This document shows positions 2,125 through 2,144 of a stretch of 64,000 nucleotides of DNA, piece after piece. The number at the start of each line of letters is the position of its first letter. Positions within the stretch are counted from its first letter, which is position 1. The translations under genes were made by a program, and so were the position numbers. The notes beneath the pieces are model-generated. The model was not told the origin of the DNA and searched no databases. It saw only the letters and a program-made list of their open reading frames with translations. Source of the stretch: Escherichia coli (lineage in GTDB: Bacteria > Pseudomonadota > Gammaproteobacteria > Enterobacterales > Enterobacteriaceae). The stretch is from assembly GCF_045037415.1 (NCBI RefSeq), contig NZ_CP173438.1; one strand, given 5' to 3'.

Positions 2125-2144
<20 letters not shown>

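What the first reader, a model, noticed from the sequence alone, without database searches (positions are those of the whole stretch)
2125..2144. About 20-nt overlap between lpoB 3' end and thiK start
The thiK ORF begins before the lpoB stop codon in a different frame. Either the genes are translationally coupled or thiK initiates at a downstream codon.
Basis: seen in the sequence. Interest (0 to 1): 0.2.

Follow-up and report, generated by a model that had tools for sequence, protein, structure and literature searches.

The report
Real, conserved lpoB–thiK gene overlap
In E. coli the thiamine-kinase gene thiK does start at a GTG 17 bases before the stop codon of the preceding gene lpoB; enteric bacteria keep this short overlap and RefSeq already annotates it, so it is ordinary, and the only unexpected feature is a conserved RNA hairpin just after the lpoB stop.

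Summary
On the minus strand, lpoB ends with TAA at 2127..2125 and the thiK ORF starts with GTG at 2144..2142, a 20-nt overlap in a different frame. RefSeq annotates it the same way.

The downstream-start alternative is disfavoured:
- GTG is present at the same place in 80 of 81 Enterobacteriaceae species loci.
- Its middle T is a silent site of an lpoB glycine codon and is the least variable of 36 comparable silent sites. The T of the AGGT Shine-Dalgarno-like motif ranks second.
- More distant homologues (40-47% identity) keep overlaps of 17-23 nt in the same phase.
- The E. coli TTG at codon 14 has no SD and is not conserved.

Translational coupling is plausible but not shown. The ribosome-binding site is weak. 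[quoted passage not shown]

One unplanned finding: a stable mRNA hairpin (2115..2094, thiK codons 10-17) begins 9 nt after the lpoB stop. It shows compensatory changes at silent sites. Its role is unknown.

Verdict: an already known, ordinary kind of gene overlap. Low interest.

The parts
2125..2766 (-). lpoB coding sequence (penicillin-binding protein activator LpoB). ATG at 2766..2764, TAA at 2127..2125.
   Evidence: ORF list. TIGR02722 match, E = 6.6e-65. RefSeq annotation of an identical strain.
1320..2144 (-). thiK coding sequence (thiamine kinase, 274 aa). GTG start at 2144..2142, stop at 1322..1320.
   Evidence: ORF list. NF007620 match over 1-274/274, E = 4.5e-166. RefSeq annotation. 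Homologues are 270-283 aa with N-termini of the same length.
2125..2144 (-). The 20-nt region coding in two frames. It covers the last 6 lpoB codons (part of Gly208 to Gln213) plus the stop, and thiK codons 1-6 plus 2 nt of codon 7. thiK is in the +1 frame relative to lpoB.
   Evidence: Sequence. The same geometry occurs in 80 of 81 Enterobacteriaceae loci. Overlaps of 17, 20 or 23 nt occur in homologues of 40-47% identity. ThiK residues 1-7 are predicted disordered (pLDDT < 50).
2142..2144 (-). thiK start codon GTG, made of bases 2-3 of lpoB Gly208 (GGT) and base 1 of Ala209 (GCC).
   Evidence: Present in 80 of 81 loci. Its T is a four-fold degenerate site of lpoB with 0.10 bits of entropy, the lowest of 36 such sites. 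It is the only ATG/GTG/TTG between the upstream in-frame stop and conserved Thr10 in 63 of 81 loci.
2149..2152 (-). Shine-Dalgarno-like AGGT, 5 nt upstream of the GTG, inside lpoB codons Ser205-Gly206.
   Evidence: Anti-SD duplex of -4.9 kcal/mol, which is only the 14th percentile of all GTG triplets in the window, so it is weak on its own. Its T is a silent lpoB site with the second-lowest entropy of 36 (0.43 bits).
2094..2115 (-). Conserved mRNA hairpin GCGCGACG-AATTGC-TGTCGCGC in thiK codons 10-17. It begins 9 nt after the lpoB stop and 30 nt after the thiK GTG, and is followed by TTTTT (2093..2089).
   Evidence: Found by the terminator scan and by folding. 96.8% of cells are paired over 81 loci. 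One pair is C:G in 41 loci, U:A in 35 and U:G in 5, with no mismatch. That pair needs at least 5-6 independent changes per column on a tree. The observed stem averages -12.9 kcal/mol against -4.7 for synonymous recodings.
2103..2105 (-). TTG at thiK codon 14, the only downstream alternative start in E. coli before the kinase core. It lies in the loop of the hairpin.
   Evidence: No SD (+0.1 kcal/mol). Start-capable at this position in 23 of 81 loci only. No initiation peak in INRI-seq Table S3.

Best explanation
thiK is translated from the GTG at 2144..2142, which lies inside the last codons of lpoB. The 20-nt overlap is therefore genuine and ancient in Enterobacterales, not an annotation artefact.

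The initiation site is deliberately poor. It has a GTG codon and a 4-base AGGT Shine-Dalgarno-like motif, and both lie inside an ORF that ribosomes are translating. ThiK, a salvage enzyme, is therefore made at a low level relative to LpoB.

Initiation most likely depends at least partly on ribosomes translating lpoB. Either a ribosome that has just terminated at the TAA moves back 17 nt to the GTG, or passing ribosomes keep the site unfolded.

What is shown: the overlap, the conserved start and SD-like motif at sites silent for lpoB, and the absence of a conserved alternative start. What is inferred: the low efficiency and the coupling.

My sub-probabilities: start at this GTG about 0.9; meaningful dependence on lpoB translation about 0.55.
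For: - Sequence and annotation agree on the overlap.
- GTG lies 17 nt before the lpoB stop in 80 of 81 species loci across Escherichia, Citrobacter, Salmonella, Klebsiella, Enterobacter, Kosakonia, Kluyvera and others.
- The T of the GTG and the T of AGGT are the two least variable of 36 conserved four-fold degenerate lpoB sites. The chance of two pre-named sites taking ranks 1 and 2 is 1/630.
- GTG is the only canonical start upstream of conserved Thr10 in 63 of 81 loci.
- In the one locus that lost it (L032, GGC AGC), a TTG two codons downstream, still inside lpoB, is the only candidate.
- Homologues of 40-47% identity keep overlaps of 17, 20 or 23 nt in the same phase, and 18-20 codons from the start to the conserved F-P motif.
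- Residues 1-7, encoded in the overlap, are predicted disordered, so double coding costs little.
- The operon is tightly packed: gaps of 2, 13, -20, 10 and 22 nt.
- For coupling or weakness: INRI-seq gave zero reads at the thiK start in 5 of 5 replicates although the transcript was in the pool at 57.6 CPM. No alternative start was called in -30..+150, and there was no Ribo-RET peak. lpoB and nagZ gave peaks in both methods (PMC9825163 Tables S2-S4).
- A Rho termination region lies inside thiK (Rho score 3.16), as expected for sparsely translated RNA (PMC7815308 Supplementary file 2).
Against: - No direct evidence for the N-terminus. No N-terminal peptide or start-site peak for thiK was found in any data set I could search.
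- About 30% of E. coli genes lack an INRI-seq peak and about 82% lack a Ribo-RET peak, so the negative result is weak.
- The -20 spacing is outside the -8..+10 nt range that Huber et al. treat as predictive of termination-reinitiation. In the synthetic series summarised by Brown and Wade, coupling fell with overlap length and was gone at -25 nt.
- The predicted stem that would hide the start codon shows no covariation: two of its silent-site pairs are paired in only 44% of loci. The local fold is no better than shuffles (z = -0.08).
- The loci are related species, not independent samples.
Confidence: 0.6

Rival explanations
1. thiK starts at the same GTG, but by ordinary independent 30S binding to its own AGGT site. 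The overlap only reflects genome compaction and has no coupling role.
For: - An SD-like motif at a good spacing (5 nt) is conserved at a site silent for lpoB, which suggests that de novo 30S recruitment matters.
- The -20 spacing is outside the range where reinitiation was efficient in experiments.
- LpoB and ThiK are not subunits of one complex, so no fixed ratio is needed (my knowledge of the two proteins).
Against: - The isolated -30..+150 fragment gave no initiation signal in vitro in 5 of 5 replicates, although 70% of E. coli starts did.
- The SD duplex is weak (-4.9 kcal/mol, 14th percentile of all GTG triplets).
- SD motifs are also used during reinitiation, so SD conservation does not discriminate.
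Confidence: 0.3
2. thiK really starts downstream of the lpoB stop, at TTG codon 14 or the CTG/TTG at codon 15. The annotated GTG would be just the longest-ORF choice and there would be no functional overlap.
For: - Longest-ORF start calls are often wrong.
- No start-site peak supports the GTG.
- The broader TIGR02721 model only starts matching at residue 26.
- Nucleotide conservation of codons 10-17 can be explained by the hairpin rather than by protein coding.
Against: - TTG14 has no SD (+0.1 kcal/mol) and lies in the hairpin loop. Codon 15 lies in the 3' arm of the stem.
- ATG/GTG/TTG occurs at these two positions in only 23 and 29 of 81 loci.
- No alternative start, CTG/ATC/ATT included, was called in INRI-seq Table S3.
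- This reading does not explain why the silent lpoB sites forming GTG and AGGT are the two most constrained of 36.
- It does not explain why the thiK frame stays open from before the GTG in all 81 loci, with a frame-preserving 3-nt indel.
- It does not explain why distant homologues keep a start codon at the same distance from the F-P motif.
Confidence: 0.05
3. About the hairpin, not the start. The conserved stem-loop just after the lpoB stop is the 3' protective structure, or a weak attenuator, of a hinT-ycfL-lpoB transcript. Transcription that enters the poorly translated thiK is ended by Rho, exonucleases trim back to the hairpin, and upstream genes are expressed more than thiK.
For: - The hairpin is selected in the sense-strand RNA. 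G.U pairs occur only in the mRNA orientation, and compensatory C:G to U:A changes occur at silent sites.
- A Rho termination region lies about 500 nt downstream, inside thiK.
- Dar and Sorek 2018 report that Rho-dependent transcripts end just after stable stem-loops that lack U-tracts and block exonucleases.
- The U-tract here is poor in most species: a T run of 5 or more in only 18 of 81.
- Four of the six more distant homologue loci folded carry a different GC-rich hairpin at +37..+57 after the lpoB stop.
Against: - No Term-seq 3' end at this position appears in the lists of Adams et al. 2021 that I could search.
- There is no clear C-rich, G-poor tract right after the hairpin.
- nagZ and ycfP lie downstream and are expressed, so polarity cannot be complete.
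Confidence: 0.35

Closest known systems
Co-directional 'phase 1' long gene overlaps (-8, -11, -14, -17, -20 ... nt) described by Huber et al. 2023 (PMC10666635)
   Same: The genes are on the same strand in one operon. The downstream start codon lies upstream of the upstream stop codon. The overlap length is 2 modulo 3, the phase those authors found several-fold commoner among overlaps of about 10-60 nt. More than 80% of prokaryotic overlaps are under 30 bp.
   Different: Nothing essential. It is simply rarer than the -4 and -1 overlaps, and unusually stable in evolution (17-23 nt kept down to 40% protein identity).
Translational coupling by termination-reinitiation at -4/-1 overlaps (for example the trp operon; Huber et al. 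2019 and 2023; review by Brown and Wade 2025, PMC12548453)
   Same: A tightly packed operon, a weak downstream initiation site, an SD-like motif inside the upstream ORF, and a start within reach of a ribosome that has just terminated.
   Different: The start is 17 nt behind the stop, not overlapping it. In the experiments summarised, coupling fell with increasing overlap and was absent at -25 nt. Coupling was not measured for this pair.
Coat-lysis gene coupling in RNA phages fr and MS2 (-38 and -50 nt spacing)
   Same: The downstream start lies well upstream of the upstream stop, and initiation depends on termination and backward movement of the ribosome (fr) or on unfolding (MS2).
   Different: Those are phage systems with demonstrated dependence and, for MS2, a defined inhibitory structure. 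Here no conserved inhibitory structure was found and dependence is untested.
[quoted passage not shown]
   Same: This comparison concerns the hairpin at 2115..2094. It is energetically stable, mostly lacks a good U-tract, and has a Rho termination region downstream.
   Different: It sits inside a coding sequence, 9 nt after the stop of the previous gene. No RNA 3' end has been seen there in the data I could search.

Membership tests
Co-directional overlapping gene pair (phase-1 long overlap) | Both genes are real, lie on the same strand, and sit in one transcription unit. | tested here: met
   Both match equivalog models. The order hinT-ycfL-lpoB-thiK-nagZ-ycfP is tightly packed and recurs in all 80 related loci. 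It is described as an apparent operon in PMC3130732.
Co-directional overlapping gene pair (phase-1 long overlap) | [quoted passage not shown] | tested here: met
   Comparative evidence only. GTG is present in 80 of 81 loci, silent-site constraint ranks 1 of 36, and there is no conserved alternative. There is no direct N-terminal evidence.
Co-directional overlapping gene pair (phase-1 long overlap) | Overlap length is 2 modulo 3 (-8, -11, -14, -17, -20, -23). | tested here: met
   20 nt here. 14, 17, 20 or 23 nt in relatives.
Translationally coupled gene pair (termination-reinitiation) | Translation of the downstream gene depends on translation of the upstream gene. | not testable with these tools
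   This needs reporter fusions with and without an early stop in lpoB. The indirect hints are the absence of autonomous initiation in INRI-seq and Ribo-RET.
Translationally coupled gene pair (termination-reinitiation) | Stop-start distance within about -8 to +10 nt, the range Huber et al. 2023 treat as predictive of termination-reinitiation. | tested here: not met
   The spacing is -20 nt.
Coupling by RNA unfolding | A conserved structure that hides the downstream ribosome-binding site and is opened by upstream translation. | tested here: not met
   The E. coli minimum-free-energy fold pairs the GTG, but z = -0.08 against shuffles. Silent-site pairs -43/-13 and -49/-6 are paired in 44% of loci without covariation. 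The start codon is paired in the minimum-free-energy fold of only 28 of 81 loci.
Intrinsic (Rho-independent) terminator, for the hairpin at 2115..2094 | A GC-rich stem-loop. | tested here: met
   8 pairs, 6 of them G:C, about -14 kcal/mol.
Intrinsic (Rho-independent) terminator, for the hairpin at 2115..2094 | A U-tract directly after the stem, conserved. | tested here: inconclusive
   E. coli has UUUUU. A T run of 5 or more occurs in only 18 of 81 loci, and most have UAUUUC. The tract is also fixed by the codons for Phe/Tyr-Phe-Pro.
Intrinsic (Rho-independent) terminator, for the hairpin at 2115..2094 | An RNA 3' end mapped at the U-tract. | tested here: not met
   No lpoB entry and no thiK 5' entry appear in the Term-seq tables of Adams et al. 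2021 held as text. Other data sets were not available.
Thiamine kinase ThiK (NF007620 / TIGR02721) | Full-length match above the curated cut-off. | tested here: met
   551 bits against a cut-off of 206, residues 1-274 on profile 1-274. TIGR02721 gives 336 bits against 299.

The most novel reading that the evidence does not exclude
The conserved hairpin that begins 6-9 nt after the lpoB stop codon would be a dedicated part of the junction. That position is at the leading edge of a ribosome sitting on the stop. By blocking forward movement of the post-termination ribosome, the hairpin would send it back to the GUG 17 nt upstream. This would make efficient reinitiation possible at a -20 nt spacing, where synthetic constructs show little coupling. 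It would be a natural chromosomal cis-element for backward reinitiation.
Probability: 0.1. Interest if true: 0.55.

Novelty: already known. Interest (0 to 1): 0.15.

Why it matters
For annotation, it confirms that the RefSeq start of thiK is very probably right, so the 20-nt overlap should not be 'corrected' to a downstream start.

For biology, it is one more example of a short phase-1 overlap. It is useful mainly as a clean natural test case: a single lpoB-silent change (GGT to GGC) removes the thiK start.

The hairpin is the more useful lead. Its three silent-site pairs all join third codon positions, and it shows compensatory evolution inside a coding region. It marks a selected mRNA element at an operon-internal gene boundary, which could explain how LpoB and ThiK are expressed at different levels from one operon.

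Tried and rejected
1. **Start-hiding RNA structure (unfolding model).** The fold is no better than shuffles and the stem shows no covariation. Not supported.
2. **Direct evidence for the N-terminus.** I searched the supplements of TRAINSPOTTER N-terminomics, Salmonella riboproteogenomics and tetracycline ribosome profiling. None had an entry for thiK, ycfN or b1106. The paper id I tried for Li et al. 2014 is not held.
3. **Solved structure.** None exists for ThiK to check the N-terminus. An AlphaFold model was used instead.
4. **RNA 3' end at the hairpin.** There is no entry in Adams et al. 2021 or in SMRT-Cappable-seq. The supplements of Dar and Sorek are not held.
5. **rut-like C-rich tract after the hairpin.** Not evident. 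Inconclusive.
6. **Programmed +1 frameshift or readthrough making an LpoB-ThiK fusion.** The hairpin has the spacing typical of recoding stimulators. I rejected the idea without a test. CAA-UAA offers no re-pairing for the P-site tRNA in the +1 frame, there is no SD 3 nt upstream as in prfB, and fusing an exported lipoprotein to a cytoplasmic kinase makes no sense. This is inference.
7. **DNA-level palindrome or antisense RNA as the reason for the inverted repeat.** Rejected, because all wobble pairs are G.U in the sense orientation and would be A.C mismatches on the other strand.
8. **Rfam.** No family matches the junction.

Full report
**What is there.** The window is E. coli chromosome. A 1.5-kb query around the finding matches 5425 of 5426 complete E. 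coli genomes. On the minus strand lie hinT, ycfL, lpoB, thiK and nagZ, all identified by curated family models. They are annotated in the same way in an identical RefSeq strain, with gaps of 2, 13, -20, 10 and 22 nt between successive genes of hinT-ycfL-lpoB-thiK-nagZ-ycfP. The lpoB reading frame ends ...GGT AAA GGT GCC GTT TCG CAG CAA TAA, with the stop at 2127..2125. One base out of phase, GTG CCG TTT CGC AGC AAT AAT CCC... opens the 274-codon thiK ORF at 2144..2142. RefSeq annotates the same 20-nt overlap, so this is not a new observation.

**Is it more than chance?** In one genome, no. The thiK frame happens to be open for 13 codons upstream of the GTG, and a start-capable triplet in such a stretch is unremarkable. 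The test is comparative.

I collected 80 loci from other species of Enterobacteriaceae, with ThiK 57-94% identical. All have lpoB directly upstream.
- In 80 of 81 loci, the window included, a GTG lies exactly 17 nt before the lpoB stop.
- This GTG is built from the last two bases of an lpoB glycine codon and the first base of the next codon. Its middle T is therefore a four-fold silent site for lpoB.
- Among the 36 conserved four-fold degenerate codons in the last 139 codons of lpoB, this T is the least variable (T in 80 of 81, 0.10 bits). Other glycine third positions range from 0.85 to 1.79 bits.
- The second least variable site (0.43 bits) is the T of the AGGT motif 5 nt upstream of the GTG.
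- Two pre-named sites taking ranks 1 and 2 of 36 has a chance of 1/630.
- The species are related, so this is not a strict probability. Neighbouring silent sites are nonetheless saturated (1.7-1.8 bits), which shows there has been ample time for change.

**Alternatives for the start.**
- In 63 of 81 loci the GTG is the only ATG, GTG or TTG between the upstream in-frame stop and the conserved Thr10.
- The E. coli TTG at codon 14 has no complementarity to the anti-SD (+0.1 kcal/mol, against -4.9 for the GTG).
- The homologous position is start-capable in only 23 of 81 loci, and the next codon in 29 of 81.
- The single locus that lacks the GTG (L032, an Enterobacter, GGC AGC) has a TTG two codons further on, still inside lpoB, as its only candidate.
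- I also fetched seven loci for ThiK homologues of only 40-47% identity. Six have lpoB upstream, with called overlaps of 17, 20 or 23 nt, always in the same phase. They have 18-20 codons between the start and the conserved Phe-Pro motif, even though the LpoB tail differs in length and sequence. The seventh (L085) has no lpoB and no overlap.
- An AlphaFold model (mean pLDDT 85.7) predicts residues 1-7, those encoded in the overlap, to be disordered, followed by a helix at 11-18. The double-coded part is thus a tolerant tail.

I conclude that the GTG is the real start (about 0.9).

**How it works.** The site is weak. It combines a GTG codon with a four-base SD-like motif whose duplex energy (-4.9 kcal/mol) is only in the 14th percentile of all GTG triplets in the window. 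Both lie inside a translated ORF.

Published start-site maps agree with a site that does not work well on its own.
- In INRI-seq (PMC9825163) each gene is tested as an isolated fragment from -30 to +150. thiK gave zero reads at its start in all five replicates, although its transcript was present at 57.6 CPM, more than lpoB.
- No alternative start was called, with CTG, ATC and ATT included.
- This is weak evidence, since 30% of genes lack an INRI-seq peak and 82% lack a Ribo-RET peak.

Adams et al. 2021 list a Rho termination region inside thiK, at E. coli K-12 MG1655 position 1163767, about window 1637 (Rho score 3.16). That is what sparse translation would allow.

Coupling to lpoB translation is therefore plausible (about 0.55) but not shown, and some evidence counts against it.
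- The -20 spacing is outside the -8..+10 range that Huber et al. 2023 regard as predictive of reinitiation.
- The unfolding variant of coupling finds no support. The fold around the start is no better than shuffled sequence, and its stem shows no covariation.

**An unplanned finding.** The terminator scan flagged a hairpin on the minus strand at 2115..2094: GCGCGACG-AATTGC-TGTCGCGC followed by TTTTT. It begins 9 nt after the lpoB stop (6 nt in the 54 loci that are one codon shorter) and occupies thiK codons 10-17.
- Its three silent-site pairs all join third codon positions: Thr10 with Arg17, Arg11 with Ser/Thr16, and Asp12 with Leu15.
- Over 81 loci, 96.8% of cells are paired. No shuffle reaches the observed covariation (0 of 500), and sliding the partner destroys pairing.
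- The Arg11:Ser16 pair is C:G in 41 loci, U:A in 35 and U:G in 5, never a mismatch.
- On a neighbour-joining tree its two columns changed at least 5 and 6 times.
- Recoding the same peptide with synonymous codons gives -4.7 kcal/mol on average, against -12.9 observed. In 74 of 81 loci at most 5% of recodings are as stable.
- All wobble pairs are G.U in the sense orientation, so the selected object is the mRNA.

This weakens one argument I would otherwise have used, that conservation of Thr-Arg-Asp upstream of codon 14 proves coding. I did not rely on that argument.

The function of the hairpin is open.
- It is a poor intrinsic terminator in most species: a T run of 5 or more in only 18 of 81 loci.
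- No Term-seq 3' end is listed there by Adams et al..
- It resembles the protective stem-loops that Dar and Sorek 2018 found at the ends of Rho-dependent transcripts. With Rho termination inside thiK, this gives my preferred reading (about 0.35): a stable hinT-ycfL-lpoB RNA end.
- A role in sending the terminating ribosome back to the GUG is the more novel reading (about 0.1).
- Four of the six distant loci with lpoB upstream carry a different GC-rich hairpin at +37..+57 after the lpoB stop, with a C:G to U:A difference between two of them. This suggests that a hairpin early in thiK is a recurrent feature.

**Comparison with what is known, and verdict.** The overlap is a member of the well-described class of short co-directional overlaps, in the commoner phase among the longer ones. 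It is already in the reference annotation.
- The membership features I could test are met for 'overlapping gene pair'.
- The spacing criterion for 'termination-reinitiation pair' is not met.
- 'Unfolding-type coupling' is not supported.

The finding is real, correctly described and ordinary. The hairpin deserves a short experimental follow-up.

Noticed in passing
window 2094-2115 (minus strand), with the T-run at 2089-2093: Conserved mRNA hairpin in thiK codons 10-17, starting 9 nt after the lpoB stop. It shows compensatory C:G to U:A changes at silent third-codon positions and is far more stable than synonymous recodings. Function unknown.
   Followed up: yes
L082:2058-2077; L083:2055-2074; L086 and L087 at +37..+57 after the lpoB stop: ThiK homologues of 42-47% identity lack the E. 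coli-type hairpin. They have instead an 8-9 bp GC hairpin (CCGGYGGC-NNNN-GCCRCCGG) about 10 codons further into thiK, in L082 followed by a U-rich run. Only four sequences, so this is not tested statistically.
   Followed up: partly
about window 1637 (E. coli K-12 MG1655 position 1163767): Adams et al. 2021 (PMC7815308, Supplementary file 2) list a Rho termination region internal to thiK. Rho score 3.16, p = 1e-7. Reads fall from 182 to 51 across it without bicyclomycin, and from 96 to 85 with it.
   Followed up: partly
L032:2486-2563 (Enterobacter sp. ENT03): The only locus of 81 without the GTG. lpoB reads GGC AGC instead of GGT GCN, and a TTG at -11 (a 14-nt overlap) is the only start candidate. 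This is a natural shift of the start by two codons.
   Followed up: partly
window 2764-2772 (minus strand): The lpoB start has three adjacent in-frame candidates, ATC-TTG-ATG. The ORF lister picks TTG and RefSeq picks ATG. INRI-seq Table S3 and Ribo-RET both call an extra initiation site at the ATC, 6 nt upstream of the ATG.
   Followed up: no
L085:1602-2852: A ThiK homologue of 40% identity follows hinT directly, with no ycfL or lpoB between them. It starts at a GTG 42 nt after the hinT stop, without an SD. The overlap is therefore tied to the lpoB-thiK pairing, not to thiK itself.
   Followed up: no
window 1300-2800, compared with NZ_CP107184.1 (E. coli strain R3): In strain R3 the match to this stretch is split into two pieces, with an IS1A-family element annotated among lpoB and thiK. 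I did not determine which gene it interrupts.
   Followed up: no
window 18647-18815 (-), 20676-21012 (+), 42743-42792 (+), 51921-51963 (+), 62061-62152 (+): Rfam matches at gathering score: SraB sRNA, the rne 5' UTR element, the PyrC leader, and the ES036 and ES056 sRNAs. All are known E. coli elements and none lies near the finding.
   Followed up: no
window 1-4000: The simple scan found 9 terminator-like sites against 4.0 +/- 2.0 in shuffles. Apart from the hairpin at 2115..2094, one lies near the end of ycfL (2841..2827, minus strand). Not examined.
   Followed up: no
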